A stretch of DNA of 36,986 nucleotides, taken from the IMG/VR virus record IMGVR_UViG_2671180460_000002, one strand, 5' to 3'. A model generated the notes under the pieces. That model ran no database searches. It saw only the letters and a list, made by a program, of their open reading frames with translations, and was not told the DNA's origin. The position numbers and the translations under genes were made by a program. The DNA is from a virus (taxonomy: Duplodnaviria; Heunggongvirae; Uroviricota; Caudoviricetes). Below, piece by piece: positions 1 through 17,324 of the stretch (positions within the stretch are counted from its first letter, which is position 1; each line of letters opens with the position of its first letter).

Positions 1-1
1 C

Positions 2-184
2 CGCCAGCTTGAGTACAAGCAGCTCTGGCGTGGCGGTCAGGTGCTTGCTGTTCCGCCAGCGTACACAAGCCAGCGTTGCGCGTGCTGTGGTCATACAGCG
101 AAAGAATGTGGGGTAGTGATCAATTCTGGACTGAGTGAGAACAGCCTGGACGAGCCTATAAGCCTTGAGTGGCGCAGGATGTGA
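2..184 (+). pseudogene. IS200/IS605-family TnpB-like C-terminal fragment, apparently interrupted by the prophage left end
   Basis: Frame beginning at 2 reads ...PPAYTSQRCACCGHTAKE..., matching the YTSQ-C-CG zinc-finger region of TnpB/OrfB. After AKE (about nt 106) the expected second Cys pair is absent and the frame stops after 25 unrelated codons. ORF is open at the window edge. Confidence 0.5.
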
Positions 185-258
185 GAGATTTTACCGATTC
201 TGGATCGTTTTGAAGAAAATGATCAAAAGTACATTTTTTTGCGCTCAAATCTGGACTG
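125..258. repeat. three copies of TCTGGAYYG (125-133, 199-207, 250-258); candidate transposase end-binding sites (L1-L3 analogues)
   Basis: Direct repeats TTCTGGACTG, TTCTGGATCGTTTT and ATCTGGACTGTTTT spaced 74 and 51 bp apart, upstream of the leftward repressor gene, where Mu carries its L1-L3 MuA sites. Confidence 0.3.
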
Positions 259-411
259 TTTTAATCATTAATGGCAGATAATTGATCGTGTTTTAAATGC
301 TTTTAAAACGGGCTTTATCTGTACCCGTTTCCTTATTTTTCCTGTTTGGTTTTGTTTTGATGTGGTTGTTGCTGATTAGTTAGCAGCATGCGCCCCGCCA
401 AAACGAGGCGT

Positions 412-1059
412 TCATGCTGATTTTTTACTTACAGATTTTGTTTCTTGCTCCGGTGTGACATCGGTCTGATCACCCGGCGATTGTGGTCGTATATGAGATT
501 CAACAATTCGCAAAATCTCTCTGTCAGTATCTTCGTTTCCATGTAATGCTACTCGGATTGCATCCTTAAGTGATTTCCTGATATTCAGACTTTGGATAGC
601 ATTCTCTTGCTCCTCCAGCGTGTTAGCGGCTTGTTTCGCTTGCCTAGTGGGTTGTTGCAGACGTTTTAGGATTCCTTTGATACCCATATCACATATTGCA
701 TTTATCAATAGTTCTTTATCTTCTGTGGACGCTCTTTTCAATAACTCGTTAGCTAGCTCGTTTGTAATATCGGGAGAAGGCTGCGCTGTTTGGTTTGATA
801 AAGAGTTTGCTGTGGCGGTGAGTTCCTCACCATAAGCGAGCCAATTTAAACTTACCTGCTCTTTATCTGAGATAAGGCAGGCTATTTTAAAAGAGGGTTC
901 TGTTCCTTTATGGATGTAGTTGTTTAAGGTTGAAGGAGGGATACCCCAGTCGCTCGCGGCAGTTCTGACACTGCGCCCACCTATTAGTTTTACTAAACGC
1001 TCTCTAAAACTTTCTTTTCCTCGGTCAACTAAAGAAAAAGCGTCATCATTTTTTGTCAT
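412..1059 (-). CDS. prophage repressor (Mu c-like position), HTH DNA-binding protein
   Basis: Leftward ORF at the left end, divergent from ner. ATG at 1059 is preceded by AGGAAAGG; the track start at 1092 is a TTG. HTH-like segment ...RSVRTAASDWGIPPSTLNNYI... Confidence 0.6.
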   Translation of the reverse strand: MTKNDDAFSLVDRGKESFRERLVKLIGGRSVRTAASDWGIPPSTLNNYIHKGTEPSFKIACLISDKEQVSLNWLAYGEELTATANSLSNQTAQPSPDITNELANELLKRASTEDKELLINAICDMGIKGILKRLQQPTRQAKQAANTLEEQENAIQSLNIRKSLKDAIRVALHGNEDTDREILRIVESHIRPQSPGDQTDVTPEQETKSVSKKSA

Positions 1060-1192
1060 TTTTCCTTTCCTATTTAACCAATTGATTTTCAATCACAAAA
1101 CTATATAAAGACCAAAAGCAAAAAGAAAATACAAAGAAAAGGCTATTTTTGCTTTACATGGGTTACATATGGATCAATACTTATATCCGAAG

Positions 1193-1225
1193 GGATAACA
1201 CGGCGGTGTTATCCGCACGGATAAC
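1193..1225. promoter_or_regulatory. operator-like inverted repeat GGATAACAC-N4-GTGTTATCC with an extra GGATAAC half-site
   Basis: Perfect 9-bp inverted repeat at 1193-1214 plus a third half-site at 1219-1225, in the repressor-ner intergenic region just upstream of ner. A TTTACA hexamer at 1153-1158 is a possible -35. Confidence 0.5.
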
Positions 1226-1241
1226 TTTTAAGGGTAACCTA

Positions 1242-1478
1242 ATGATGGTTAGAAATGAAGTAATGAACCTGGACTGGCACCGCGAGTACATTGTCGCAGC
1301 TGTGCACACCAAAGGTTTTACATTGCGTGAACTGTCTGTTCGCGCTGGTCTAAAAAAAGACTCTTTAAAAAATGCATTGTATCGCTCATGCCCTAAATAT
1401 GAACGCATCATAGCCGATGCTATTGGTGTGGAACCTGCGGAGATCTGGCCAAGCCGGTATGCCAGTAAGGCGGCATAA
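1242..1478 (+). CDS. ner: Ner-like DNA-binding regulator
   Basis: Translation contains DWHREYIVAAV...IWPSRY, matching Mu Ner (DWHRADVIAG...IWPSRY). Stop overlaps the transposase start. Confidence 0.85.
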   Translation: MMVRNEVMNLDWHREYIVAAVHTKGFTLRELSVRAGLKKDSLKNALYRSCPKYERIIADAIGVEPAEIWPSRYASKAA

Positions 1479-3520
1479 TGTTTTATTCAGCCAATGAACT
1501 GGCCGGTCTTACTGGTTTGCCCGGTACAGTTCAGGGGGTGCGCTGGACGCTCAATCGGATCACAGAGACGCACCCGGAATGGAAGCGCAAGCGTGAAGGC
1601 ACCAAAGCATTCGAGTATCACATCGACTGCCTGCCCGCTGAAGCGCAGAAGGTTTTACGTAAGCGCCTGACTCATCAGGTCCTGGAAGATGCACAACTGC
1701 CCGCCGTGGTTGAGCAGAAGGCAGTTAAAAACGTCGCCGTTCGTGATGAACTGGAAGTGATGGTCAAATGCCCGGAACTGGCATTACGCGAAGTTCAGGC
1801 ACTGACCGACAAGCAAAAGGCCATCGCTGATGCGCGGATATTGCTGGCTACCGAAGTGCATAAACTGCGTGAATACGCAAGAATGTCCAGGACGGCAGCG
1901 ATAAAACACATTGTTGATGGTATCCGCCAGGAGGCTTTGCCCGAGCGCGTTATTGTGGCAGGTAATACCGCCAATGCCCGACAGGGTAAGCGAACTGGCG
2001 TCAGTACAGGGAGTTTACAGGAATGGTATTCCGCCTGGCTGATGGCGCGCGGTGATGCCAATCAGTTACTGGCGTTACTGGCTCCCGGTCATCATAAGGG
2101 AACACCGTGGGAGCAGGTTTGGTGGTTGAGCGATTTCTTTATGTTCTATCGCTCATGGAAGCGCCCGACCGTTGAATATGCGTATCGCGAGTTTTCAGCC
2201 TGGTGGCATGAAAAACACGCGAACGATGCGGGAATGCTGGCGGCACTGCCTTCAGTTCACGCAGTAAGACGGGTGTTAAGCAGCGTCCCGGTGATTGTTA
2301 AAGAGCGTTTCCGCTCCACCGGTTCAGCCTGGCGTTCGCTCAATCCCTTTGTGCGACGCGACTGGAGCACATTACCGGTTAATGCGGTATGGGTCGGGGA
2401 TGGTCACTGTATGAAAATGACCGCGTTTAACCCCCTGACCGGCAATATTTTCCGGCCAGAAGTGACGCTGGTTATGGATGCGGGGCAGCGCTTTGTTGTG
2501 GGCTGGTCGCTGTCCCTGTCGGAGAACGTGATAGCCGTTGCTGATGCGTTACGTTACGGCATGGCGCAGCACGGGATACCGCTGATTTATTACTCCGATA
2601 ACGGGGGCGGCGAAAAAAACCGGGTACTTGATGCCGATATTACCGGGATTCTGCCCCGTCTGGGTGTGGAACATCACACGGGGATACCAGGTAACCCACA
2701 GGGGCGCGGGGTGATTGAAAGGCTTAACAAGGAAATTCCCCGGGATGTGGCCCTGAGTTTCCGGACGTACTGCTCAAAGGGAGCAGACAAGGAAACCGTA
2801 ATGATGCAGCAACGGATTATGCAGTCAGCCATTAAGGCCACCCACAAAGGGAAAGAGCTGACAAAACGGCAGGTTAAGTCAAGGGATGAAATCCCCACCT
2901 TTGAGCAACTGATGGCAGCTATAGAGCTGGAGGTCAGACGCTATAACAACCGGCCACACAGCAGCCTTCCCCGCAAAGAGGATGGCGAATATTACAGTCC
3001 GGCAGCGTATCGCCGGAAACTGATAAAAGAACAGAATGTTGAAATTGATTTTCTGTCGCCGGAAGAGCTGCATGAAATGTTCAGACCGGAGGTGACGCGC
3101 AAAACATTTCGCGGGGAAATTCAGTTATTCAACAATATTTATTACTCGTATGAGCTGGCAGCAGAGCACGGAAATGAAGTCAGGGTTTGTTACGACATTC
3201 ACGACGCAAACAGCGTGATTGTCAGGCGGATGGACGGTTCTTATATCTGCGATGCCATCTGGAACGGTAATAAGGTTGATGCGTTCCCGAAAGCTGTTAT
3301 CGAACAGCAGCAGGAGAAACGCGCCAGAGGCCGCATTGCACGGGCCACGCAGAAAATCGAAGAGGCTAAACGCGAGCTTACCCCGGCTATTACGCAGAAG
3401 CCTGACTTTAATTTTGGATGTGGTCTGGAGCGTAAGGAGGAAAAGAAAAAAGAAGAACTTTATTTCTTTGCATCCGAGCGTGACCGCAATTTAAAGAAAG
3501 ACGGCACAAACAACCGTTAA
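1478..3520 (+). CDS. Mu-type DDE transposase (MuA-like)
   Basis: 680 aa, immediately after ner. N-terminal winged-helix-like region followed by a large catalytic core, size and position as for MuA (663 aa). Confidence 0.9.
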   Translation: MFYSANELAGLTGLPGTVQGVRWTLNRITETHPEWKRKREGTKAFEYHIDCLPAEAQKVLRKRLTHQVLEDAQLPAVVEQKAVKNVAVRDELEVMVKCPELALREVQALTDKQKAIADARILLATEVHKLREYARMSRTAAIKHIVDGIRQEALPERVIVAGNTANARQGKRTGVSTGSLQEWYSAWLMARGDANQLLALLAPGHHKGTPWEQVWWLSDFFMFYRSWKRPTVEYAYREFSAWWHEKHANDAGMLAALPSVHAVRRVLSSVPVIVKERFRSTGSAWRSLNPFVRRDWSTLPVNAVWVGDGHCMKMTAFNPLTGNIFRPEVTLVMDAGQRFVVGWSLSLSENVIAVADALRYGMAQHGIPLIYYSDNGGGEKNRVLDADITGILPRLGVEHHTGIPGNPQGRGVIERLNKEIPRDVALSFRTYCSKGADKETVMMQQRIMQSAIKATHKGKELTKRQVKSRDEIPTFEQLMAAIELEVRRYNNRPHSSLPRKEDGEYYSPAAYRRKLIKEQNVEIDFLSPEELHEMFRPEVTRKTFRGEIQLFNNIYYSYELAAEHGNEVRVCYDIHDANSVIVRRMDGSYICDAIWNGNKVDAFPKAVIEQQQEKRARGRIARATQKIEEAKRELTPAITQKPDFNFGCGLERKEEKKKEELYFFASERDRNLKKDGTNNR

Positions 3521-3537
3521 TTTAAAAGGTATTTAAT

Positions 3538-4431
3538 ATGAGTTTAATTACGCAATTAAATGACGTAATGGCCCGTCGCGGCTATACACAAACCCACGTT
3601 GCCCGTGCTATTGGTCGTAGCAGCGCCGTTATCAACCAGTATTTGCAGGGTAAATATCAGGGCGATATCACTGATATCGAAGAGCGAATTTCTGCCTTTG
3701 TCAGCCGTGAACGGGAAAAAGAAAACAACCGGCGTGTAAAAGCAAGTTTTGTGACTACAGGTATGGCCGCCAAAGGGTTGGAGGCACTGGCCTATGCTCA
3801 TCTGGAGTGTGAAATTAGCGTGTTGTATGGCGCGGCAGGTCTTGGCAAAACAATGATTTTGCGCGAATACGCCGCCAGAAACCGGGACGCAATACTGATT
3901 GAGGCTGACCCGGGCTATACAGCCAGGACACTGCTGGAGGAGTTGTGCCGCCAGTTGGGGGTAAAGGTTCGCGGCAATATTCACGAACTGATTAATGCCT
4001 GTGTACACGAATTGCGTGACTCCGGTCGCCTGCTGATGGTGGATGAAGCCGAACTGCTCCCCTATCGTGCGCTGGAAGTTCTGCGTCGTCTGCATGACAA
4101 GGCGGGCGTCGGTGTTGCCCTGGCTGGTATGCCGCGCCTGTTGATTAATCTTAAAGGCAATCGTGGGGAGTTCGCGCAGCTATACAGTCGGGTGGCTCTT
4201 TCGCTGGACCTCGGCGATACGCTGGCGCAGAAGGATTTCATCCAGATAGCCGCTGAACTGATGCCGGAAGCAGCAGCGCCTGAAATCTGTGAAGCACTTT
4301 ACACACGCTCACGGGGTAATGCCCGACGCCTGTTTAAACTTGTGCGTGGGGTCTACCGGATTTGTGATATCAGCGATGCCCCGGTCAGCGTGCAGGCTAT
4401 TGATGATTTCGCGGAAATGTTAATTCACTGA
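3538..4431 (+). CDS. MuB-like AAA+ ATPase, transposition target DNA activator
   Basis: 297 aa with Walker A GAAGLGKT and N-terminal HTH-like segment; directly downstream of the transposase as in Mu. Confidence 0.85.
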   Translation: MSLITQLNDVMARRGYTQTHVARAIGRSSAVINQYLQGKYQGDITDIEERISAFVSREREKENNRRVKASFVTTGMAAKGLEALAYAHLECEISVLYGAAGLGKTMILREYAARNRDAILIEADPGYTARTLLEELCRQLGVKVRGNIHELINACVHELRDSGRLLMVDEAELLPYRALEVLRRLHDKAGVGVALAGMPRLLINLKGNRGEFAQLYSRVALSLDLGDTLAQKDFIQIAAELMPEAAAPEICEALYTRSRGNARRLFKLVRGVYRICDISDAPVSVQAIDDFAEMLIH

Positions 4432-4444
4432 GTAAAGGTCAGGT

Positions 4445-4777
4445 ATGGAACAAATTGCCATTAAAAAAGAAATTAAAGCACTACGGAATATCGGTCGTAA
4501 TGGTTGTATTTATTTTAATGGATCCCCCGGTGAAATTATTCCGTTTGTTGATTGCTTCGTGCCGAGTGAACTGCGCATTGATTTGTATTCCCGGGAAAGG
4601 GAAATCAATGGAATCGGAAATACCAGTGATGACTGGGACGTTGATGAATGCTGCGCGCGATTAATGATTATCCCTTTTGAGCAGAATTTACAGGGGTTTC
4701 GTCGGGCTTATCGTCTTGCGCGTATGTGTGCCCGTCTTCCCCGTTATCAGCCACGACTTGCGTTTGCACTCAGATAA
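4445..4777 (+). CDS. hypothetical protein (early accessory region)
   Basis: ORF in an AT-rich early region, ATG at 4445. Confidence 0.35.
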   Translation: MEQIAIKKEIKALRNIGRNGCIYFNGSPGEIIPFVDCFVPSELRIDLYSREREINGIGNTSDDWDVDECCARLMIIPFEQNLQGFRRAYRLARMCARLPRYQPRLAFALR

Positions 4778-4815
4778 TGCAGCGCAGAACTGTTAATTCA
4801 CTGATGGAGAACAAA

Positions 4816-5043
4816 ATGATAGACAAGCAGACCATTAATGCCGTCCGTTCCCGTGCCCGTGTGGCCATCCACACCACCGGTGGTCGTGTAACGGGACAGC
4901 ATCACCGTTTACCTGTGGTTTATGCCTGCCCACCCGTGGGTGGTCCTGTATGGCCGGTAACGGAAATCATCCAGACATTCAGCGGCCTGCGTCGTGTGGT
5001 TAAAACGTCCTGTATCGACGGCTGCACCGTCGTATGGCAATAA
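4816..5043 (+). CDS. hypothetical protein
   Basis: ATG at 4816 preceded by GGAG; the track ORF from 4726 probably over-extends. Confidence 0.35.
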   Translation: MIDKQTINAVRSRARVAIHTTGGRVTGQHHRLPVVYACPPVGGPVWPVTEIIQTFSGLRRVVKTSCIDGCTVVWQ

Positions 5044-5058
5044 AACGAGGAATTAAAA

Positions 5059-5310
5059 GTGAGCGTGAAATTAACAATAGTATTTACCGACCTGGGTAAT
5101 AACCAGTGCCATAACCTTATTCGGGTGGAAAATGGCGACAATGCCACACTCGAAGAAGCGGCAAGAACTCTGGGGACTGTCGGCGCTATTTGTACGGTTC
5201 TGAAGGAGAAACACGGAAATGAACGGCTTGATCTGCAAATCTACCATGACTACGTGAAACAACTGGCACAGGGATGTCCGTATATTCCTCAAGAAACACA
5301 AATGCATTGA
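5059..5310 (+). CDS. hypothetical protein
   Basis: GTG start at 5059 preceded by GAGGAA. Confidence 0.35.
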   Translation: MSVKLTIVFTDLGNNQCHNLIRVENGDNATLEEAARTLGTVGAICTVLKEKHGNERLDLQIYHDYVKQLAQGCPYIPQETQMH

Positions 5311-5320
5311 GAGATGAAAA

Positions 5321-5512
5321 ATGTCACTGGAGCTTGAATTAACTTTCAGCCTGGACAGGCCAGGTAAACCGGAGAAAGCCGTCGCGACGTATCAGTTGTC
5401 GCCTGATGTCACGGGAGAGCAGGTTTCCGACATTATCATAAAAACTCACTGTTTTATGAACGAAATTATTTTTAAATCGTTTGATTTCAAAGGAGAAAAA
5501 TATGGCGGTTAA
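5321..5512 (+). CDS. hypothetical small protein
   Basis: ATG at 5321 preceded by GAGAG; 63 aa. Confidence 0.3.
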   Translation: MSLELELTFSLDRPGKPEKAVATYQLSPDVTGEQVSDIIIKTHCFMNEIIFKSFDFKGEKYGG

Positions 5513-5717
5513 GTTAGAAGTAATTATCTATACCGATGAAAACGGTACGCTTCGTGTCAGGAGTATGGGGGCTGTTGATAAAAAAGGATTTACGGATGAA
5601 GAGGTCGGTGTAAGACAACGGTTATGGGAGGTAATGAATCAAACGCTTAATAAAGAATTTAACGGCGTTGATTTATTTTCTGTTGGCGTGGAACCCTGCG
5701 CACATAACACACATTAA
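5502..5717 (+). CDS. hypothetical small protein
   Basis: ATG at 5502 preceded by AGGAGAAAA; overlaps the previous ORF end. Confidence 0.35.
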   Translation: MAVKLEVIIYTDENGTLRVRSMGAVDKKGFTDEEVGVRQRLWEVMNQTLNKEFNGVDLFSVGVEPCAHNTH

Positions 5718-5746
5718 TCTGTAAATATCACTGAGGTAATTTAATT

Positions 5747-6391
5747 ATGACGACTGAAAATAAAGTTAAGCAATACACGAAAACTGAAGCGCCTGAAGGT
5801 TACTGGGTGGATGCACGTGGCGTAATGACACCTGAAAGCCTGATTAAGGATATTGACCGCGACCGCGAGCAGCTGGTCGGTGAGATTGTCGAACTGGTGA
5901 TTGCTGCCTCCGCCTCGCTGCGTGATTTGAAACTGCGCGCGTTTGGCGATATTCAGGCATTTATTGACCTGTCGGCTGAGAAATACGGCGCTGTGAAAGG
6001 CGGTAAAAAAGGGAATATCACGCTTTACAGCTTTGACGGGTGTTACAAGATTCAGCGCGCCATGCAGGACCGTATCGCGTTTGATGAACGCATTCAGACC
6101 GCGAAGTCGCTGATTGATGATTGCCTGGCTGACTGGACGGAAGGTGCACGCCCTGAAATTAAGGCCATCATCAGTGAGGCATTCAGCACGGACAAGGAAG
6201 GCAACATCAACACCGGTCGCGTTCTGGCCCTGCGTCGCCTCGAGATTGAGGACGAACGCTGGAATAACGCCATGTCACTGATTGGTGAAGCCGTCCAGGT
6301 GATTGGCAGCAAAAGCTATATCCGCGTGTATGAGCGCGTCGGTGATTCTGCTGAATACCGCGCAATCCCGCTTGATATTGCAGGGGTTTAA
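5747..6391 (+). CDS. hypothetical protein, resembles DUF3164-type proteins of Mu-like prophages
   Basis: 214 aa acidic protein at the position after B where DUF3164 proteins occur in Mu-like phages; assignment from memory, not searched. No resemblance to Mu Gam. Confidence 0.45.
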   Translation: MTTENKVKQYTKTEAPEGYWVDARGVMTPESLIKDIDRDREQLVGEIVELVIAASASLRDLKLRAFGDIQAFIDLSAEKYGAVKGGKKGNITLYSFDGCYKIQRAMQDRIAFDERIQTAKSLIDDCLADWTEGARPEIKAIISEAFSTDKEGNINTGRVLALRRLEIEDERWNNAMSLIGEAVQVIGSKSYIRVYERVGDSAEYRAIPLDIAGV

Positions 6392-6392
6392 C

Positions 6393-6626
6393 ATGCATCA
6401 GGATATCAAAGAGTACAGAGCCAGAAATAGTTGCGCGGCGTATTCGCTGGGCGCGTCCAGAGCAGAACAACGCGGCGATTATGCCGAAGCTGAAAAACTG
6501 TGGCGTAAGGTAGCACAAAGCCCGTGTAGTACCCTGCGCCGCATCTGGGCGGAACACCGGGCAGAGTTCTGTGCCAATGCTCACCTGAAAGGATGGAAGC
6601 CGCCTCATGAACGCGAAGAACTTTAA
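6393..6626 (+). CDS. hypothetical protein
   Basis: ATG at 6393 one nt after the preceding stop; 77 aa. Confidence 0.35.
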   Translation: MHQDIKEYRARNSCAAYSLGASRAEQRGDYAEAEKLWRKVAQSPCSTLRRIWAEHRAEFCANAHLKGWKPPHEREEL

Positions 6627-6798
6627 TCAGTTATATCCGCCAGGAACTCGCTTCATGCACATTGCACACCCGGCACTGCGTGGTGGTCGTGTGGTGAAAA
6701 CCGTTTCACCTGCCAGAGATTTTAAATGTGGTTGTGTGGTTGAAATTAATGTCGAGCCTTATTTCGTTAAAGTCGAAACGCTGAAAGCACCGCATTAA
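6607..6798 (+). CDS. hypothetical small protein
   Basis: 63-aa ORF overlapping the previous gene by 20 nt. Confidence 0.3.
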   Translation: MNAKNFNQLYPPGTRFMHIAHPALRGGRVVKTVSPARDFKCGCVVEINVEPYFVKVETLKAPH

Positions 6799-6805
6799 TT
6801 TAATT

Positions 6806-6864
6806 TGTTTTTAATTGTTATTTAAAACAGGCGTAAATCCGCCGGGGCTGGCTTACGCCTGAAT
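6806..6864 (+). repeat. 58-bp direct repeat copy 1: AT-rich TGTTTTTAATT box followed by GC hairpin GGCGTAAATCCGCCGGGGCTGGCTTACGCC
   Basis: Near-identical copy at 7432-7489. Hairpin stem GGCGTAA/TTACGCC; no U-tract follows. Confidence 0.7.
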
Positions 6865-6879
6865 TAAGGGGATTTGTAT

Positions 6880-7425
6880 ATGAAAGATAAAGTCTGGGAT
6901 TTTATTGTTTCTCCTGAAGGTTTTGCTACCCGTTCATCTGAGAAGTTAACCAATGTAACGTTATGGGCTTCATCGTTGCTGGGACGTCTGGGAGGACCCG
7001 GTAGTTTTATGGATGTGGTACTTAATGCCCAGATTGCCGGGAATGCTATGGCCAGTAAGGGGGCTTATATTCAGGGGGATTTGTTCGCCATGATGGCAAA
7101 TGACACGGTGGCACTGTACCTCGCGACACGCAACATACTGACAAGAATATCCATGCAGTCATGTAGGGAGGGTATGGAAGACCTCCGGGACATTCTTGAA
7201 GGTGATTTGCTCACTATTTCAGGCGTGCAGGAATCCCTCCCGCGTCAGCTGCGGTTTATTGACCTGATGGAGTCATATAAAGATAAGCCTGATTTTTTTC
7301 AGATTCGATTCAGCGGAATGGAACTGCTGGATGAATATTATCCGCTGGATTCGATTTCCCGTGATGTGAAGGCGTTCGTAAAGTCTGTTGACCGTCATTA
7401 CCGGAAAGCTGAACGTCGTAGTTAA
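6880..7425 (+). CDS. hypothetical protein (AT-rich cargo gene flanked by direct repeats)
   Basis: ATG at 6880 with AAGGGG RBS 8 nt upstream; the track start at 6874 is a TTG. Visibly lower GC than the late region. Confidence 0.5.
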   Translation: MKDKVWDFIVSPEGFATRSSEKLTNVTLWASSLLGRLGGPGSFMDVVLNAQIAGNAMASKGAYIQGDLFAMMANDTVALYLATRNILTRISMQSCREGMEDLRDILEGDLLTISGVQESLPRQLRFIDLMESYKDKPDFFQIRFSGMELLDEYYPLDSISRDVKAFVKSVDRHYRKAERRS

Positions 7426-7431
7426 TAAGTC

Positions 7432-7489
7432 TGTTTTTAATTTTATTTGTATATGGCGTAAACCCGCCGGGGCTGGCTTACGCCTGAAT
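7432..7489 (+). repeat. 58-bp direct repeat copy 2 (same AT box plus hairpin)
   Basis: Matches 6806-6864 with a few substitutions; ends 16 nt before the ATG at 7506. Confidence 0.7.
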
Positions 7490-7505
7490 CTGAGGAAGTT
7501 TATTT

Positions 7506-7688
7506 ATGAATATCGCTAAGCAAAAAAAATTCTCCCGCGAAATTAATCTGACAATTGTTTGTTTTAATCGTCTTGCGACCAGTTCTCAGTCGACAGCAGA
7601 TGTTCATTCAGTACCGCAGCCAGAACGAACTCCCCACGTTCCTGAAGGCTGTGCCGGAAGTTGTGTAATTCAGAATTCAGGATGCTGA
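7506..7688 (+). CDS. hypothetical small protein
   Basis: ATG at 7506 with GAGGAAG RBS, positioned after hairpin copy 2 exactly as 6880 is after copy 1; coding quality uncertain. Confidence 0.3.
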   Translation: MNIAKQKKFSREINLTIVCFNRLATSSQSTADVHSVPQPERTPHVPEGCAGSCVIQNSGC

Positions 7689-7701
7689 GGTTCAGACGAC
7701 C

Positions 7702-8412
7702 ATGAAAGATAAATACATTGCCAAAATCAAAAAACTGTTACGCCTTGCCAGAGGAACATCAAGCCCGGAAGAAGCCGCTAACGCTATTGCAAAAGCCCAG
7801 GCTTATATGCGCCAGCATGGTATCAGCGAAAACGACGCGGAATTGTTCGACATTCAGGAAGCTGCCAGCGCGGGTGCGCCGAGTGATGCCAGTACGCCGC
7901 CGCTTTATATGCACATCCTGTGTGACCTGGTCTGTAAAGCCTTCGGTGTCGAGTGTTACATCTCCGGCGAATACCGGGCTTCTGGTTCACTCAAACGTTA
8001 CGTGCGTTTTTATGGTTCTGACAGCCGCCCGGAAATTGCGGCCTATGCGTTTGATGTGCTTTCCCGTCAGATGATGGCAGAGCGCAAGAAATATCAGGAT
8101 AAACACTGCAAACGTTGTGGTCCGTCCACGCGGGTAGCCCGTGGCGACCAGTTCTGCGAAGGCTGGGCCTTTGGTGCCCGTGACGTGATTACGGTGTATG
8201 ACGTCTCCCCGGAAGAGAAAGGTCGTATTGAGCTTTACCGGCAGAGCCTGCACAGCTCTAAAGGGCTGCGCGAAGGGAATATGCGCACAGCTAAAGCGTG
8301 TCGGGGTGCAGAGTTTGCCGCTACTGCGGGTTTTATCGCCGGGAAAAACGCCAGACTGCATCAGGGGGTTAATGGTCAGAGCAACAGACCGCTGGCACTG
8401 GGGAGGGGATAA
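7702..8412 (+). CDS. hypothetical protein with DUF2786-like N-terminus
   Basis: N-terminus MKDKYIAKIKKLLRLARGTSSPEEAANAIAKAQ resembles the DUF2786 motif common in phage and plasmid accessory genes; from memory. Confidence 0.5.
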   Translation: MKDKYIAKIKKLLRLARGTSSPEEAANAIAKAQAYMRQHGISENDAELFDIQEAASAGAPSDASTPPLYMHILCDLVCKAFGVECYISGEYRASGSLKRYVRFYGSDSRPEIAAYAFDVLSRQMMAERKKYQDKHCKRCGPSTRVARGDQFCEGWAFGARDVITVYDVSPEEKGRIELYRQSLHSSKGLREGNMRTAKACRGAEFAATAGFIAGKNARLHQGVNGQSNRPLALGRG

Positions 8413-8414
8413 CG

Positions 8415-8642
8415 ATGGCTTTTAAACTTCTCAGTGTTACCGAAGCAATATACCAGCCGCCAGGAGAACGCCACGAATACAGGATGAATGACGGCAGCGC
8501 GGCGGTTGAGTTTCCCAAATATCCGGGGGCTTCCCGGTGGCGGTTCTATGACAGTGTGGGACGCCGGATTATTAAAAGAACCGTGCACAACGCCATGAAA
8601 GCCGCTGTAGAACGTCACAAAAGGAGGTTTAACTGCAAATGA
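8415..8642 (+). CDS. hypothetical protein
   Basis: ATG at 8415 preceded by GGGAGGGG. Confidence 0.4.
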   Translation: MAFKLLSVTEAIYQPPGERHEYRMNDGSAAVEFPKYPGASRWRFYDSVGRRIIKRTVHNAMKAAVERHKRRFNCK

Positions 8643-8869
8643 ATATTGAATTTTATAACTATGGGACTAAAGCAAAAATCATTGTTACCTGCTGGCTCTG
8701 GGAGTTTCGCCGCTATAACCGGGTTGTGGATGCGGCGCTGTTTGCGGCCCCTGAAGTGCACCATCAGAGCGGTGGCGGTCTTTTAATGAGAACCGTCATC
8801 TACGGTAAGACGGTCCCGATGTTACGGGCGTTTAAAGTGGCAAAACAGGAGGCTGGCAATGGTCATTGA
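8639..8869 (+). CDS. hypothetical protein
   Basis: ATG at 8639 preceded by AAGGAGG; overlaps the previous stop. Confidence 0.4.
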   Translation: MNIEFYNYGTKAKIIVTCWLWEFRRYNRVVDAALFAAPEVHHQSGGGLLMRTVIYGKTVPMLRAFKVAKQEAGNGH

Positions 8870-9149
8870 TAAAACGATAACGATAGATGTAGCCATGAAT
8901 GCAGGCATCGCTCTTCTCGGTTGGTGTTACATCATGCTCCGCGCCGGGATGTGGCTGTCCCTTGTATTCCTGAAAACATGGAATAAGCACCGTAAACAGA
9001 CGCAGCAGCAGAAGGCAATGAATGCGTTTTTTGAGGCCTTCGATATCGACAGTATAGAGCCGGGAGAACCAACCCGCGTTATCCCCGTAGGTGATGTCGT
9101 GATTTTGGTATACCGGAGTGAAAAGAATGAACAGGAGGTGGCGCAGTGA
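8859..9149 (+). CDS. hypothetical protein with one predicted membrane helix
   Basis: ATG at 8859 preceded by CAGGAGG; hydrophobic stretch AGIALLGWCYIMLRAGMWLSLVFL. Confidence 0.4.
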   Translation: MVIDKTITIDVAMNAGIALLGWCYIMLRAGMWLSLVFLKTWNKHRKQTQQQKAMNAFFEAFDIDSIEPGEPTRVIPVGDVVILVYRSEKNEQEVAQ

Positions 9150-9310
9150 ACCAGCAAACCAGAATAAGCGATAAGAGTCTGACCAGACTGATTGCTGATG
9201 CGGACAAGGTGCTGGAGCGGAACACCCCGGTTGCCGATGAGGAATGGTGGCAGGATTTCCGGGCCGCAATGCTGGAACTTCAGGAACGTCGTCGGGAGGA
9301 GTTGAAGTGA
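9146..9310 (+). CDS. hypothetical small protein (54 aa)
   Basis: GTG at 9146 overlapping the upstream TGA, AGGAGG 8 nt upstream. Not in the supplied track because it is under 60 aa. Confidence 0.3.
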   Translation: MNQQTRISDKSLTRLIADADKVLERNTPVADEEWWQDFRAAMLELQERRREELK

Positions 9311-9330
9311 GCAAGGTGAAAGAGCGCGGC

Positions 9331-10014
9331 ATGATTTTTAATGATGAGATGGTCCGGGCCATCCTCGAAGGAAGGAAGACGCAGACTCGCCGACCTGTAA
9401 AAAATGTCAGGGCCGATAACTGCCTGGTTATCCGTAAACCGACAAAGAAACGCAATGGTGTCTATACCCACGTTATGGATGCACCTGAACATGGTTTATG
9501 CCCGTTCGGTAACGTTGGTGATCGCATATGGGTCCGTGAAGCGTGGGCGATATTAGGCAATGAGGATGGTTGCAGTGTGGACTGGAACGACAACCTTTGT
9601 CGTGGCGATGAGAAGAACGCAGCAAGGATTTATCGGGCCAGTTGTGAGCAAAAACCGGGGGATTATGGCTTATGGTCGATACCCGATGATGCCGACTGGA
9701 AGCCTCACACTGTGAATGAAAAGTTTGATGGTGGGTGGCGTCAATCAATTCACATGCCGCGCTGGGCTTCGCGTATTTTGCTGGAAATTACCGACGTGCG
9801 TGTGGAACGGCTGCATGACATGAGCGAGGCAGATGCTAAAGCGGAAGGTGTATCTCCGGCAACGTACAAAATTACGCCGCCGGAAGCTGTTTATCGCGTT
9901 GGTTTTGGTGATATCTGGCGCGGTATTTACGGGCAAGAGAACTGGCTATCTAACCCGTGGGTATGGGTAATTGAGTTTAAGCGTATTCAGGAGAAAACCA
10001 GTGAGCAAGATTGA
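9331..10014 (+). CDS. hypothetical protein with ASCH-like N-terminal motif
   Basis: MIFNDEMVRAILEGRKTQTRRP...WVREAW resembles ASCH (PUA-like) domain signatures; from memory. Confidence 0.45.
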   Translation: MIFNDEMVRAILEGRKTQTRRPVKNVRADNCLVIRKPTKKRNGVYTHVMDAPEHGLCPFGNVGDRIWVREAWAILGNEDGCSVDWNDNLCRGDEKNAARIYRASCEQKPGDYGLWSIPDDADWKPHTVNEKFDGGWRQSIHMPRWASRILLEITDVRVERLHDMSEADAKAEGVSPATYKITPPEAVYRVGFGDIWRGIYGQENWLSNPWVWVIEFKRIQEKTSEQD

Positions 10015-10594
10015 CTATCAGGCACTGCGAATGGCGGCAGAAAATGCAACACCAGGCGAATGGTGTACTGATGACTACCATGGGGTAATTGCCGATGCCG
10101 GACTGAACGCAAATTACTACATAGCATCATGCTCAGGACCAGATAATCGCTCCAATAAGCGATTCATAGCCGCAGCCAATCCGGCTGCTGTGCTGGTACT
10201 GCTGGATGAACTGGAGTATTACAAATCACGCGAAGAGCGGGTTACAAAGCTGGTTATGGATAACTCGACAAGTTGGGATGCTCTTTACAAGCAGCTGGAA
10301 GCCGCAGAGAAGCGCATAGCAGAACTGGAAGCACGGGAAACAAAACCAGCCAAAGGCGAAGTTCTTGTCGTTGTATCTGGTTTTACTGGTTGCGGAAAAA
10401 GCGCCATTGCCGGGGAAATAGAAATCGCGATGAAGGCTATTGGTGTACCGGTTAAGTGGACTAATGGCGATGCAGAAAAGCGCATGACTGGCGCTGACTG
10501 GCTGACAGCAATTGAGATGTACAAACCAACTGTGCGCATCGTGGAAGTTAATGTGCCACGCGTCGCTGGCATTCGCATCAAAGGAGGTGAGTAG
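10001..10594 (+). CDS. Ead/Ea22-like protein
   Basis: ...ATPGEWCTDDYHGV...NKRFIAAANPAAVLVLLDELE resembles the conserved N-terminal region of lambdoid Ea22-family proteins. GTG at 10001 with AGGAG upstream; alternative ATG at 10031. Confidence 0.5.
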   Translation: MSKIDYQALRMAAENATPGEWCTDDYHGVIADAGLNANYYIASCSGPDNRSNKRFIAAANPAAVLVLLDELEYYKSREERVTKLVMDNSTSWDALYKQLEAAEKRIAELEARETKPAKGEVLVVVSGFTGCGKSAIAGEIEIAMKAIGVPVKWTNGDAEKRMTGADWLTAIEMYKPTVRIVEVNVPRVAGIRIKGGE

Positions 10595-10767
10595 TGCGTG
10601 TGGCATGTATCGGCTTGTTACCGTACCCGACTCGTTTTTGGGCTTCTGCGCTAATTGCAAAGCCGTATGTCCTGATGGCTGACAGCATCATCCCTGCACC
10701 GAAACGCCGTACAGGCATTGCGGCGGCGAGACGAGCAGCAAAGAAACGCAGGAGAACAAAACGATGA
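10594..10767 (+). CDS. possible small basic protein (57 aa)
   Basis: GTG at 10594 with GGAGG 7 nt upstream; stop overlaps the next ATG. Weak. Confidence 0.2.
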   Translation: MRVACIGLLPYPTRFWASALIAKPYVLMADSIIPAPKRRTGIAAARRAAKKRRRTKR

Positions 10768-10946
10768 AAAACCGTAAGGCAAAAATTCTGTTAGCTCGCA
10801 GAAACGGTGTTGGGATCTGGCGATGGTTGAGGATTAGTAACAGACGAGTGAGGTTGACGGGGTGTTGCGGGGTGATGGGGCACAGCTGTTGCAAAAAGCC
10901 CAGCGCGGCGCAAAACCGCTGGAAGAATCACACTAACGCAAAGTAA
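10764..10946 (+). CDS. possible small Cys-rich protein
   Basis: 60-aa ORF, ATG overlapping the previous stop; weak. Confidence 0.2.
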   Translation: MKNRKAKILLARRNGVGIWRWLRISNRRVRLTGCCGVMGHSCCKKPSAAQNRWKNHTNAK

Positions 10947-10966
10947 TTAAATAATAACCAATAACA

Positions 10967-11010
10967 GACCAAAACATATGTTTTGGTCTGCCAAAAGTAG
11001 TGTTTTGGTC
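10967..11010. promoter_or_regulatory. twin palindromes GACCAAAACATATGTTTTGGTC and GCCAAAAGTAGTGTTTTGGTC
   Basis: Perfect 22-bp palindrome at 10967-10988 immediately followed by an imperfect copy, just upstream of the ATG at 11014. Confidence 0.5.
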
Positions 11011-11013
11011 ATT

Positions 11014-11292
11014 ATGAAGATTGAACAAATCGGAATGGCAGCCTTCCGGCAACAGGCTGAAAGCGGTGGTGTGGATGAGTTCGTCGTGCAGCGGTTCGGT
11101 GGTGTGTATCACCTCTTCGCTGTGAATCGCCGCGCCGGGGTGTCCTATTTTCTACAGGAACGCCGTGGCGATTACAAGACGTGGCTGTCTCTTGACCGTG
11201 CCGCCGCGTTCCTGTCGGGGATTGGTGTTTCTCGTTTTACCGTGCGTTTTGAGGATAACAAACATGCTGAAAAAGATGATCGGAGCCATTAA
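11014..11292 (+). CDS. hypothetical protein
   Basis: ATG at 11014 after the twin palindromes; the track start at 10978 lies inside the palindrome. 3' end overlaps the GemA-like gene in another frame. Confidence 0.35.
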   Translation: MKIEQIGMAAFRQQAESGGVDEFVVQRFGGVYHLFAVNRRAGVSYFLQERRGDYKTWLSLDRAAAFLSGIGVSRFTVRFEDNKHAEKDDRSH

Positions 11293-11677
11293 AGCCGGTC
11301 AGGCGTATCTGGGGTGGGATGATGCCCTTTATCGCCAGACACTGGCTCGCCTGACCGGTAAAACCAGCACCACACGCTGCAATCTCGATGAACTGCGCAT
11401 CATCCGGGAATACATGCACGAACAGGGATTTCCGCGCAAAGCGCCCGCCGGTAAAGGTCGCCGCCCCCGTGTTGCAATGAGCAGAAAATCGGTATTATCC
11501 AAAATTGAGGCGTTGCTGGCTGATGCCGGTCGTTCCTGGGCGTATACGGAAGGACTGGCATCTCACATGTATAAGCAACATGTGATCGAATGGCTGACAG
11601 ATGATCAACTGTTCGGGGTGATGGTGGCGCTGACAAAAGACGCCAGAAAACGAGCCAGAGCAGCACGTAAACAATAA
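11264..11677 (+). CDS. GemA-like protein (DUF1018-type)
   Basis: N-terminus ...AIKAGQAYLGWDDALYRQTLARLTGKTSTTRCNLDELRIIREYMHEQGF matches the GemA/gp16 pattern; position just upstream of the Mor/C gene as in Mu. Confidence 0.55.
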   Translation: MLKKMIGAIKAGQAYLGWDDALYRQTLARLTGKTSTTRCNLDELRIIREYMHEQGFPRKAPAGKGRRPRVAMSRKSVLSKIEALLADAGRSWAYTEGLASHMYKQHVIEWLTDDQLFGVMVALTKDARKRARAARKQ

Positions 11678-11682
11678 AGAAT

Positions 11683-11710
11683 CAGCCCCTGCCTTGCAGG
11701 GGCTTTTTTG
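11683..11710 (+). terminator. intrinsic terminator ending the early operon
   Basis: AGCCCCTGC-ctt-GCAGGGGCT stem-loop followed by TTTTTTG, 6 nt after the GemA-like stop. Confidence 0.7.
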
Positions 11711-11713
11711 TGG

Positions 11714-11743
11714 TCTGTACAGGCGATCATGTATGGCTATAAT
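11714..11743 (+). promoter_or_regulatory. putative sigma70-type promoter for the Mor/C-family gene
   Basis: Consensus -10 TATAAT at 11738-11743, 30 nt upstream of the start codon; -35 is weak (TGTACA). Confidence 0.4.
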
Positions 11744-11772
11744 AACAGTAAGTTACTACCGGAGACGCCATC

Positions 11773-12240
11773 ATGCAGACCTTCAGTGAAACAGATCTTC
11801 GCGATGCGCAGGCACTACTGCCCGATTCCGTGCAGCAACTGATTAGCGTGATTGGCTTTCCCGCTCTGACCCGGTTAATTCGTTCTTTTGGTGGTGTGAC
11901 GTTAAGCGGTAAAACCGGCGCACACACCGAACGCACCGGCGGTGTCCATGCCCTGTTACATGACGTGCTGACCGAAGACGAAATCAACAAACTGATCCGC
12001 TTTCTTGGCGGTGCGCCGTTTTATATTCCCCGTTGCGATCATGCGTTACGTGCCCTGCGTAACTCCCGTTTTATGGCTGATTTACAGCAACATATAAAAG
12101 GCGGATGCTCACACCGGCAGGCGCTGGCACTGCTTTGTCCACGTTACGGAATTTCAGACCGGTACGCATGGCAACTGATACACCGACGACAAAAACAGAT
12201 TTCGCTGAAGAGCCCCACCCAGGTGGGGCTTTTTGATTAA
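11773..12240 (+). CDS. Mor/C-family transcriptional activator (late gene activator)
   Basis: Contains the Mor-family ...GGAPFYIPR... segment followed by a C-terminal HTH-like region; located after the early terminator and before the lysis and structural genes. Confidence 0.8.
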   Translation: MQTFSETDLRDAQALLPDSVQQLISVIGFPALTRLIRSFGGVTLSGKTGAHTERTGGVHALLHDVLTEDEINKLIRFLGGAPFYIPRCDHALRALRNSRFMADLQQHIKGGCSHRQALALLCPRYGISDRYAWQLIHRRQKQISLKSPTQVGLFD

Positions 12241-12265
12241 TGGGCCTCAGAAAAAGGAGACACTT

Positions 12266-12544
12266 ATGACCAACTATACGGCCCTTGCCGAGTATACGGC
12301 CTACTCAGAGCAGGCCCGGGATGCTGCCGGACGCCGCTTCGCTTATATGAAAAATCTGTCCAGCCAGCTAAACCGAATGGCCGAACAACCGGATATGATT
12401 GTTCATGAAGAAGCGTTGCAGTGTGCCATTGCTGATATTATCGCCAGTGAAAACGAGATGCGAGCCGCTCTGGAAAAAGCAAACGCCTCTGCTCCGCTTT
12501 GCAATAAACCTCTTATTACGCCGGATTCCCTTTCCCGCTTCTGA
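12266..12544 (+). CDS. hypothetical protein
   Basis: ATG at 12266 preceded by AAGGAG; 92 aa. Confidence 0.4.
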   Translation: MTNYTALAEYTAYSEQARDAAGRRFAYMKNLSSQLNRMAEQPDMIVHEEALQCAIADIIASENEMRAALEKANASAPLCNKPLITPDSLSRF

Positions 12545-12563
12545 TTTATCACCCCGCCACGGT

Positions 12564-12580
12564 GGGGTGCTGAACTCCCC
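12564..12580 (+). promoter_or_regulatory. late-promoter dyad motif copy 1 (GGGGTGCTGAACTCCCC)
   Basis: One of three copies of GTGCTGAAC-N-CCC; overlaps a second dyad CACCCC-N8-GGGGTG. Lies upstream of the lysis cassette. Confidence 0.5.
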
Positions 12581-12663
12581 CAGCAGTACCTGCCACTCCA
12601 TACCGCCTATCCTGTCCACTCAGTCTGTAAAACACGCAGGGATAACACTCACAGGAGAATTTC

Positions 12664-13056
12664 ATGTCTGAACCCATTTCAGGCAGCGGCGCGGTGGCAC
12701 TGACCATTGGCGGTGCCGGTGTGTACGGCCTTATCACCAATACCGATTTCGGTGTGGTCGTGGGCGCATTTGCCGGGGCGCTGTTTGTGGTCACCCAGCA
12801 AAAAGAAATCCCGGTCTGGCGCATGATTATCCACCTGATTATCGCGTTTGTGGTCGGCGTTCTGGGGGCCGGTGTGGCGGCGTCACTGATGCAGTGGCTG
12901 ACCCACTACAACGACAAACCCCTCGACGCGTTATGTGCGGTCGGTGTCTCGGCGCTCTCAATCAAGATTCTGACGTTTATTTATAAACAGGATATTTCAT
13001 CGCTGTTTGGCCTGTTTTCACGGCTGCGCGGCGGAGGGGGTGAAAATGGTAAGTAG
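12664..13056 (+). CDS. putative holin-like membrane protein
   Basis: 130 aa with several hydrophobic helices, AGGAG RBS; first gene of the lysis cassette. Confidence 0.45.
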   Translation: MSEPISGSGAVALTIGGAGVYGLITNTDFGVVVGAFAGALFVVTQQKEIPVWRMIIHLIIAFVVGVLGAGVAASLMQWLTHYNDKPLDALCAVGVSALSIKILTFIYKQDISSLFGLFSRLRGGGGENGK

Positions 13057-14050: not shown

Positions 14051-14071
14051 TTTTTTTAAGGTTTTGCACAA

Positions 14072-14892: not shown

Positions 14893-14938
14893 CCACAGCG
14901 GCCCGGTTTTCCGGGCCGTCTGATATTCGGGATTTGTA

Positions 14939-15679: not shown

Positions 15680-15680
15680 C

Positions 15681-17321: not shown

Positions 17322-17324
17322 TTA

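What the first reader, a model, noticed from the sequence alone, without database searches (positions are those of the whole stretch)
100..310. Prophage left end appears to sit inside a tnpB reading frame; repeated TCTGGAYYG motifs are candidate transposase end sites
The incoming ORF shows the TnpB zinc-finger motif (YTSQRCACCGH) but loses TnpB-like sequence after about nt 106, and TG dinucleotides lie at 107-110 (Mu-type ends begin 5'-TG). Three TCTGGAYYG repeats follow at 125, 199 and 250, spaced like Mu L1-L3. This would mean the phage transposed into an IS element, and it gives a testable prediction for the attL terminus.
Basis: partly seen in the sequence, partly recalled or inferred. Interest (0 to 1): 0.55.

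Follow-up and report, generated by a model that had tools for sequence, protein, structure and literature searches.

The report
Mu-like prophage inserted into tnpB
The first 106 bases of the window are the front part of an IS609 tnpB (insQ) gene that was split when a 38-kb Mu-type transposable prophage inserted, starting exactly at base 107; this is an ordinary phage transposition, with one small difference: this phage family duplicates 4 target bases, not Mu's 5.

Summary
Window 1-106 is 100% identical to insQ/tnpB of IS609 in thousands of E. coli genomes, and that homology stops at 106|107. The same prophage occurs at 17 other sites, and relatives at 4 more. All begin at window 107 with 5'-TGTGGGGTAG. 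The right end lies outside the window and reads ...GAAGTTACA-3'. It carries the same TTCTGGAC core 19 nt from its tip, in inverted orientation.

The three TCTGGAY repeats sit at +19, +93 and +144. In ~80%-identical relatives the positions are kept, but every core on both ends reads TCTGGGC. The two transposases are 94% identical and differ mostly in residues 135-188. This is the Mu L1-L3/R1-R3 layout with a different recognition sequence.

The predicted 5-bp duplication is wrong. Seven left/right pairs show 4 bp, and four of them exclude 5 bp. Assuming 4 bp (AGAA), I predicted a 79-aa fusion ORF at the missing right junction. That exact protein and junction (GTTACA-AGAA-AACCGCC, then the rest of insQ, then yedK) exist in E. 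coli draft assemblies. The rebuilt empty site matches complete genomes 100%.

Verdict: an ordinary Mu-like insertion that inactivates tnpB. Low interest.

The parts
1..106 (+). 5'-side fragment of insQ/tnpB of an IS609-type (IS200/IS605 family) element. It covers up to codon 343 of 402 and keeps the first CxxC of the zinc finger.
   Evidence: 100% identity to insQ in thousands of E. coli records, with every alignment ending at 106. Intact copy L002 1578-2786. Pfam Cas12f1-like_TNB hit.
2..184 (+). Tail of the chimeric ORF: InsQ residues up to ...HTAKE, then 25 phage-encoded residues and a stop at 182-184. The second CxxC (CQVCG) and the NADVNGARNI motif of intact InsQ are lost.
   Evidence: Translations. 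Intact C-terminus.
103..106 (.). Left copy of the 4-bp target-site duplication, AGAA.
   Evidence: The right junction in L044 reads GTTACA|AGAA|AACCGCC. The empty site with a single AGAA matches complete genomes 100%. The 4-bp rule holds in 7 other left/right pairs.
107..36986 (+). Mu-like transposable prophage. The left terminus is 5'-TG at 107-108. The window stops in the tail-fibre gene, and the prophage continues about 1.3 kb to ...GAAGTTACA, for an inferred total of 38,193 bp.
   Evidence: 18 different host flanks all join at the same T.
116..132 (+). Predicted transposase end site L1. Core TTCTGGAC at 124-131, TCTGGAC starting 19 nt from the terminus.
   Evidence: The right end has the same core at +19 in inverted orientation. 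The core is invariant in relatives except for a concerted A to G change.
145..151 (+). CCTGGAC at +39, a weak and uncertain extra site at the position that R2 occupies on the right end.
   Evidence: CAGCCTGG is conserved in relatives, but the 3' part reads GTA there and does not follow the A to G switch.
190..206 (+). Predicted transposase end site L2. Core TTCTGGAT at 198-205, at +93.
241..257 (+). Predicted transposase end site L3. GCGC at 241-244 and core ATCTGGAC at 249-256, at +144.
412..1059 (-). Prophage repressor, a CI-type HTH protein of 215 aa.
   Evidence: Pfam Phage_CI_repr. Annotated at the same position in strain C5.
1242..1478 (+). Ner-like early regulator (HTH_35).
   Evidence: Pfam E 3.8e-25.
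1478..3520 (+). MuA-type DDE transposase, 680 aa.
   Evidence: Pfam HTH_Tnp_Mu_1 and Mu-transpos_C above cut-off, rve below cut-off. 21% identical to MuA over 622 aa. 94% identical to the E2348/69 prophage transposase.
3538..4431 (+). MuB-like AAA+ target-DNA activator, 297 aa.
   Evidence: Pfam AAA_22 and TniB.

Best explanation
A Mu-type transposable phage of about 38.2 kb inserted by DDE transposition into the insQ (tnpB) gene of an IS609 copy next to yedK in an E. coli chromosome. Its 680-aa MuA-like transposase is predicted to bind repeated sites with core (T/A)TCTGGA(C/T), often with GCG about 9 nt upstream. The sites lie at +19, +93 and +144 from the left tip. On the right end they lie at +19, at a degenerate +41 position, and inverted at +68. 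The transposase would cleave at the terminal 5'-TG...CA-3' and join the 3' ends to target phosphates 4 nt apart, which duplicates AGAA. The insertion cuts InsQ after residue 343, between the two CxxC pairs of its zinc finger, and removes the last RuvC motif. That TnpB copy is therefore dead. Shown here: both junctions, the termini, the 4-bp duplication, the empty site, the insertions at many sites, and the conservation and covariation of the repeats. Inferred: that the repeats are bound by the transposase, that the stagger is 4 nt at the chemical step, and that the truncated TnpB is inactive.
For: The insQ homology ends at 106|107. The identical left terminus abuts 18 unrelated host sequences, and the ~80%-identical relatives abut 4 more. 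Right ends from three sites stop at ...GAAGTTACA. Both tips share TGT, GAT at 12-14 and TTCTGGACT at 18-26. Relatives keep the site positions (left 19/93/144; right 19/41/69 inverted) but read TTCTGGGC at all six. The R1-R2 spacing is 22 nt, as in Mu, and the third right-end site is inverted, as in Mu. The two transposases differ at 44 of 680 residues, and 15 of those lie in 135-188. That region aligns with MuA's end-binding domain I-beta/gamma region. Mu-type gene set: repressor, Ner-like, MuA-like, MuB-like, GemA, Mor, Mu-like head and tail genes. 4-bp duplications: CTTT, AACG, GCCT for the identical phage and CACT, GAGA, AAAT, TATC for relatives. The 79-aa fusion ORF predicted from a 4-bp duplication exists exactly as P0001, KQJ37235.1/MWU28301.1. 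Its contig reads attR-GTTACA-AGAA-rest of insQ-yedK. The empty site is 100% identical in complete genomes.
Against: The right junction was found in assemblies (LIVI01000042.1 and two more contigs) that I could not prove are the window's own genome. The window is 100% identical over 12,199 nt to WTSH01000037.1, but the link between the two contigs is inferred. At this particular site the base before AGAA is also A. Taken alone, the site therefore cannot separate a 4-bp duplication from a 5-bp duplication with a phage end ...GTTAC; the other pairs decide that. No binding or transposition experiment exists for this phage. The residue window 135-188 was chosen after seeing the data. The +41 site of this phage's right end is degenerate (ATTTTGAAC).
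Confidence: 0.93

Rival explanations
1. The insQ/phage junction is not a simple insertion. It would be the product of a later rearrangement next to the prophage (a deletion or inversion from replicative transposition, or IS-mediated recombination), or an assembly chimera, so the other half of insQ would not flank the right end.
For: The window lacks the right end. The source contig appears to break inside repeats at both ends. No collection scanned held either junction as DNA.
Against: The break lies exactly at the phage terminal T that 17 other insertions share. The complementary junction exists in public assemblies, with the right end, AGAA and the exact continuation of insQ. Joining the two flanks with a single AGAA rebuilds a real locus at 100% identity.
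Confidence: 0.03
2. The TCTGGAY repeats are not transposase end sites. They would be chance repeats in AT-rich end DNA, or sites for another protein such as the repressor or a host nucleoid protein.
For: No binding data exist. The 8-mer also occurs six times elsewhere in the window at about the chance rate. Other conserved blocks lie in the left end, for example AAGCCTTG.GTGGCGC at +54 to +69.
Against: Three same-strand copies fall within 134 nt where about 0.9 are expected in the whole window. The core sits at the same distance from both termini in inverted orientation. R1-R2 are 22 nt apart and the third right-end site is inverted, as in Mu. All six sites switch A to G together in the relatives while the flanking sequence diverges. 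The operator-like repeats between repressor and ner have a different sequence, GGATAAC.
Confidence: 0.05
3. The element makes Mu's canonical 5-bp duplication, with the phage right end being ...GTTAC and the next A belonging to the target.
For: In 4 of 8 pairs (the window site AAGAA, and ACACT, AGAGA, AAAAT) the base before the 4-bp repeat is A, so a 5-bp reading is possible there. Reviews give 5 bp for Mu and 6 bp for B3 (PMC3145075, PMC8705779).
Against: In 4 pairs the fifth base differs from A: cCTTT, gAACG, cGCCT, cTATC. The right end reads GTTACA in all 8 junctions, while the -5 base of the 18 window-type left flanks is A in only 6. With a 5-bp duplication the 79-aa fusion ORF would have no start codon, yet that exact protein is on record. 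The depositors of LC727881.1 annotated a 4-bp duplication for a related Sp18-like Mu phage.
Confidence: 0.02

Closest known systems
Bacteriophage Mu (Muvirus mu): MuA/MuB transposition with attL L1-L3 and attR R1-R3
   Same: 5'-TG...CA-3' termini. One terminal and two internal sites on the left. Two sites 22 nt apart plus an inverted third site on the right (Mu cores at +22/+127/+167 and +22/+44/inverted about +57). Gene order repressor, ner, A, B. Mor, GemA and Mu-like head and tail genes. Insertion at essentially random sites.
   Different: The transposase is only 21% identical to MuA. The site core is TCTGGAY instead of CGAAA. The left-end spacing is shorter. The duplication is 4 bp instead of 5. 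The repressor is a CI-type HTH protein.
Mu-like prophage of EPEC E2348/69 inserted in eutC, and its relatives in E. coli tcmA_3, TUM9812 and TUM1881
   Same: Same family. The transposase is 94% identical. The first 12 nt and the site positions are identical, and the duplication is 4 bp.
   Different: Every end-site core reads TTCTGGGC instead of TTCTGGAY. The transposase substitutions cluster in residues 135-188. R2 is intact there but degenerate in the window's phage. The tail-fibre modules differ.
Sp18-like Mu phages of STEC (for example Mu_JNE082796 in LC727881.1; Sp18 of O157 Sakai, PMC10132054)
   Same: E. coli Mu-like transposable prophages often found inside other mobile elements. Depositors annotated a 4-bp duplication. 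Repeated cores at about +19 and +41 from the tips.
   Different: The transposase is 45% identical. The core motif is TTGATACC. One terminus reads TA rather than TG.
Phage B3 / Tn552-type transposable phages
   Same: Transposable phages with TG...CA ends and a short target duplication (PMC8705779).
   Different: B3 makes a 6-bp duplication. B3/D3112-group transposases are about 30% identical to this one.
IS609 insQ (TnpB, RNA-guided endonuclease of the IS200/IS605 family)
   Same: Window 1-106 is an exact copy of its coding sequence.
   Different: Here it is only the target. The gene is split 60 codons before its stop.

Membership tests
Mu-type transposable phage | MuA-family DDE transposase next to a MuB-like AAA+ ATPase, downstream of a divergent repressor / ner-like pair | tested here: met
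   Pfam HTH_Tnp_Mu_1 (32.9 bits, cut-off 23.3) and Mu-transpos_C (62.8, cut-off 21.7). AAA_22/TniB for the B-like gene. HTH_35 for the ner-like gene. Pairwise alignment to MuA over 622 aa.
Mu-type transposable phage | Genome termini 5'-TG...CA-3' with imperfect terminal inverted repeats | tested here: met
   The left tip is TGTGGGG at 18 junctions. The right tip is ...GTTACA at 8 junctions. The shared core is at +19 on both ends.
Mu-type transposable phage | Several transposase-binding sites at each end (L1-L3, R1-R3) | tested here: inconclusive
   The sequence evidence is strong: conserved positions, concerted core change, 22-nt R1-R2 spacing, inverted third right-end site. Protein binding cannot be tested with these tools.
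Mu-type transposable phage | Insertion at many unrelated sites rather than at one attB | tested here: met
   18 different flanks for the identical phage and 4 more for relatives, in genes, other prophages and an IS.
Mu-type transposable phage | Short target-site duplication flanking the prophage | tested here: met
   Eight pairs, all with exact 4-bp repeats. Empty sites were checked for eutC and insQ-yedK.
Phage Mu itself (genus Muvirus) | 5-bp target duplication from a 5-nt stagger | tested here: not met
   The duplication is 4 bp. The 5-bp reading is excluded in four pairs. Mu's 5 bp is from PMC3145075.
Phage Mu itself (genus Muvirus) | Close sequence relationship to Mu | tested here: not met
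   No nucleotide match to any phage record beyond the insQ part. MuA identity is 21%. The best isolated phages reach 41-48% transposase identity.
Mu-type transposable phage | Virion DNA carrying variable host sequence at both ends; replication by replicative transposition | not testable with these tools
   Needs virion DNA sequencing or induction experiments.
IS200/IS605-family tnpB (insQ of IS609) | TnpB zinc-finger/TNB domain and nucleotide identity to insQ | tested here: met
   Pfam Cas12f1-like_TNB, E 1.2e-11. 100% identity over window 1-106.
IS200/IS605-family tnpB (insQ of IS609) | Intact reading frame with both CxxC pairs and the C-terminal RuvC motif | tested here: not met
   The frame leaves insQ after ...CACCGHTAKE. 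The lost part holds CQVCG and NADVNGARNI.

The most novel reading that the evidence does not exclude
This clade of E. coli Mu-like phages, with transposases about 21% identical to MuA and including the Sp18-like group, joins its ends to target phosphates 4 nt apart. Mu uses 5 and B3 uses 6. The reviews I could read list only 5 and 6 bp as the scar of transposable phages. Within the clade, closely related pairs (94% identical transposases) have switched their end-site core (TCTGGAC against TCTGGGC) together with a short patch of the transposase. That would give a natural system for asking what sets target stagger and end specificity in Mu-type transpososomes. The 4-bp scar is real. What is uncertain is whether it is undescribed and whether it reflects a distinct transpososome geometry.
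Probability: 0.35. Interest if true: 0.4.

Novelty: new member of a known kind. Interest (0 to 1): 0.2.

Why it matters
For annotation, it fixes the exact left boundary of the prophage (window 107). It predicts the right boundary and total size, and it shows that the 5' insQ fragment and a GenBank 'cytosine methyltransferase' (KQJ37235.1) are two halves of one disrupted tnpB. For prophage finding, tools that look for a 5- or 6-bp scar will miss or misplace the ends of this common E. coli Mu-like family, which leaves 4 bp. For mechanism, the matched change of all six end sites and a 54-residue patch of the transposase points to the specificity determinants. None of this changes what is known about how Mu-type phages work.

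Tried and rejected
Exact-pattern scans for the predicted right junction (with 3-7 free bases) and for the left junction found nothing. They covered GTDB representative genomes, JGI metagenomes and IMG/VR. No complete E. coli genome, plasmid or phage record spans 106|107.

Strain C5 carries the 99.7%-identical prophage, but it could not give a duplication. ISEc12 interrupts its right end after the inverted site, and the last ~55 bp are absent from the fetched region.

The reconstructed 99-aa and 368-aa left-junction proteins are not in the protein collection.

An Rfam scan of an intact IS609 gave only a sub-threshold hit, so I could not place the omega-RNA relative to the insertion. The simple terminator scan found nothing in 1-1300.

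The 5-bp duplication hypothesis was considered and rejected. I also considered that IS609 had inserted next to the phage rather than the reverse. I rejected this because insQ is broken mid-ORF, 228 nt from the IS right end, and the empty site is an intact insQ. Literature searches found no statement of a 4-bp duplication for Mu-like phages. The only record of it was the GenBank feature in LC727881.1.

Full report
**What is at 1-310.** Frame 2 of the + strand reads ...AYTSQRCACCGHTAKE and then continues for 25 residues to a stop at 182-184. The first 41 residues hit Pfam Cas12f1-like_TNB. BLAST against 5,426 complete E. coli genomes shows window 1-106 at 100% identity in thousands of records annotated 'RNA-guided endonuclease InsQ/TnpB'. 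Every such alignment ends at 106. The same holds for plasmids and phage records. An intact copy (L002, the ydcL-insQ-ydcO locus) continues GCGAAAGAA|AACCGCCTGTC where the window has GCGAAAGAA|TGTGGGGTAG. The break is unambiguous, at 106|107, 60 codons before the insQ stop. The lost part holds the second CxxC (CQVCG) and the NADVNGARNI motif. From what is established for TnpB, that motif carries the third RuvC catalytic Asp. So this copy cannot be an active nuclease; this is an inference.

**What begins at 107.** The rest of the window is a Mu-type prophage:
- CI-type repressor (412-1059, minus strand)
- Ner-like HTH_35 protein (1242-1478)
- 680-aa transposase with HTH_Tnp_Mu_1 and Mu-transpos_C domains (1478-3520)
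- MuB-like AAA+ protein (3538-4431)
- then DUF3164, GemA, Mor, lysis genes, terminase, Mu gpT-type head and a contractile tail

The window ends inside the tail-fibre gene, so the right end is not in it.

Look-ups of exact window proteins in public assemblies, plus strain C5, gave 17 further copies of the same phage (99.7% to C5). All join unrelated host DNA at the same T of TGTGGGGTAGTGATCAATTCTGGAC. With the window that makes 18 distinct flanks, and all four bases occur just before the tip. Relatives about 80% identical over the first ~1.1 kb, in E2348/69 (in eutC), tcmA_3, TUM9812 and TUM1881, start at the same nucleotide.

**The right end and the repeats.** Three assemblies gave the right end next to three different host sequences...AATAGTCCAGAAAAAATCGCGAAGTTACA|. 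Read inward, it is TGTAACTTCGCGATTTTTTCTGGACTATT. The left end is TGTGGGGTAGTGATCAATTCTGGACTGAG. TCTGGAC starts at nucleotide 19 from both tips.
- Left-end cores lie at +19, +93 and +144, which are window 125, 199 and 250.
- A weaker CCTGGAC lies at +39.
- The right end has +19, a degenerate copy at +41 (ATTTTGAAC) and an inverted copy at +68.

TCTGGAYYG occurs 4 times in the window against 0.89 expected, three of them within 134 nt on one strand. WTCTGGAY occurs 9 times against 3.1.

The strongest evidence is comparative. In the E2348/69-type relatives the left ends align without gaps and the cores sit at the same positions: 19, 93, 144 on the left, and 19, 41 and inverted 69 on the right. 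All six read TTCTGGGC(G) instead of TTCTGGA(C/T). Sequence between the sites has diverged freely. Most sites also carry GCG about 9 nt upstream of the core, so the site looks bipartite.

The two transposases are 94% identical. Of their 44 differences, 15 fall in residues 135-188 (binomial 8e-7, but the interval was chosen after seeing the data). In the pairwise alignment to MuA, that stretch corresponds to MuA's end-binding domain I-beta/gamma region.

Mu's own ends, read from its genome, have CGAAA cores at +22, +127 and +167 on the left, and at +22, +44 and inverted about +57 on the right. The layout here is the same: one terminal and two internal sites on the left, and two sites 22 nt apart plus an inverted third on the right. 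The recognition sequence is different and the left spacer is shorter. I conclude that the repeats are the transposase end sites. Binding itself is inferred.

**Target duplication.** For the identical phage, three assemblies gave both junctions:
- ...aaccCTTT|phage|CTTTctg
- ...ccgAACG|phage|AACGcgt
- ...tgcGCCT|phage|GCCTgcc

For the relatives the repeats are CACT (checked against an intact eutC), GAGA, AAAT and TATC. All seven are exact 4-bp repeats. In four of them the fifth base differs from the phage's terminal A, which excludes a 5-bp reading. The right tip is GTTACA in every junction. The -5 base of the 18 window-type left flanks is A in only 6.

A related Sp18-like Mu phage inside an Stx2c phage (LC727881.1) carries a depositor-annotated 4-bp 'duplication due to insertion' (GATG), and shows the same end layout with a TTGATACC core. 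A review by specialists lists only 5 bp (Mu) and 6 bp (B3) as the scar of transposable phages (PMC8705779). So the 4-bp scar is on record in GenBank but not, as far as I could find, discussed.

**The missing right junction.** DNA pattern scans of three collections found neither junction. The window is 100% identical over its last 12,199 nt to contig WTSH01000037.1 (37,210 nt, GCA_009799095.1). That contig runs 108 nt further right and, by arithmetic, 116 nt further left. The window is evidently a trimmed draft contig that breaks in two repeats, insQ and the tail fibre.

I then built the predicted right junction. With a 4-bp duplication (AGAA), an ATG 56 nt inside the right end reads in frame into the insQ 3' part and gives a 79-aa ORF. 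With 5 bp, no start codon is in frame. A protein search with that 79-aa sequence returned an exact, full-length match: P0001, KQJ37235.1/MWU28301.1, on 3 contigs, misnamed 'cytosine methyltransferase'. Its contig (LIVI01000042.1, GCA_001420065.1) starts in the last phage gene and reads ...AATAGTCCAGAAAAAATCGCGAAGTTACA|AGAA|AACCGCCTGTCACAAAGT... It runs through the insQ stop and the IS right end into yedK-yedF-yedE-yedD-amyA-fliTSD-fliC.

Joining window 1-106 to that flank with a single AGAA gives a 506-nt sequence. It matches the insQ-yedK locus of complete E. coli genomes at 100% with no gap, and 1,095 genomes cover at least 80% of it. The one caveat is that I could not show that the right-junction contig and the window come from the same isolate. 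An independent insertion at the same nucleotide is very unlikely.

**Comparison and verdict.** The element works like Mu. It meets the defining features of a Mu-type transposable phage that can be tested in sequence. It is not Mu or a close relative:
- MuA identity is 21%.
- No isolated phage is closer than 48% in the transposase.
- There is no nucleotide match to any phage record beyond the insQ part.
- The duplication is 4 bp.

It belongs to a common but little-studied family of E. coli Mu-like prophages that includes the E2348/69 eutC prophage. A transposable phage landing in an IS element is ordinary; Sp18-like phages are often found inside other mobile elements (PMC10132054). The finding is correct and well resolved, and of low general interest. 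The modest points of interest are the 4-bp stagger and the matched change of end sites and transposase.

Noticed in passing
window 103-106; L003-L005 with L036-L038; L023, L025-L027; L043: This Mu-like family, and the Sp18-like phage in LC727881.1, leaves a 4-bp target duplication. Reviews cite 5 bp (Mu) or 6 bp (B3) for transposable phages.
   Followed up: yes
L044 590-829 (LIVI01000042.1): The right-junction fusion ORF (19 phage-encoded residues plus the last 60 residues of InsQ) is deposited in GenBank as 'cytosine methyltransferase' (KQJ37235.1, MWU28301.1). This is a mis-annotation of a tnpB fragment.
   Followed up: partly
window 1184-1225: There are nested inverted and direct repeats of GGATAAC/GTTATCC half-sites (TATCCGAAGGGATAACACGGCGGTGTTATCCGCACGGATAAC) between the repressor and ner-like genes, just downstream of a promoter-like site at 1153-1181. 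They are probably the operator, and by analogy with Mu possibly the transposition enhancer.
   Followed up: partly
L001 39700-42270 and 24252-25466 (E. coli C5): The 99.7%-identical prophage copy in strain C5 has ISEc12 inserted in its right end just after the inverted site. The terminal ~55 bp (R1/R2) are absent from the fetched region, and an IS3-family element sits in the head/tail region. That copy is probably immobilised.
   Followed up: partly
window 36178-36986 (tail-fibre gene, cut by the window end): Many draft assemblies of this prophage break at nearly the same place in the tail-fibre gene (L006-L008, L031-L033). The right-junction contig starts only in the next gene. This suggests the C-terminal tail-fibre region is repeated elsewhere in these genomes.
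   Followed up: no
right end of the window-type phage (L003 about 12640-12660): The R2-position site is degenerate in this phage (ATTTTGAAC) but intact (ATTCTGGGC) in the E2348/69-type relatives. In Mu, R1 and R2 are the most important right-end sites.
   Followed up: no
window 160-175 and 290-308: Blocks AAGCCTTG.GTGGCGC (+54 to +69) and GTTTTAAATGCTTTTAAAA (+184 to +202) are invariant between the two phage types, although the surrounding sequence diverges. Their function is unknown; they could be a host-factor site or the end of the repressor transcript.
   Followed up: no
L044 829-880 versus L002 2786-2840: The disrupted IS609 copy lies next to yedK, not at the K-12-type ydcL-ydcO (ydcM) locus. 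Both copies end at ...GGAGGATGTCAA, 48 nt after the insQ stop. 1,095 complete genomes carry the yedK-side copy.
   Followed up: partly
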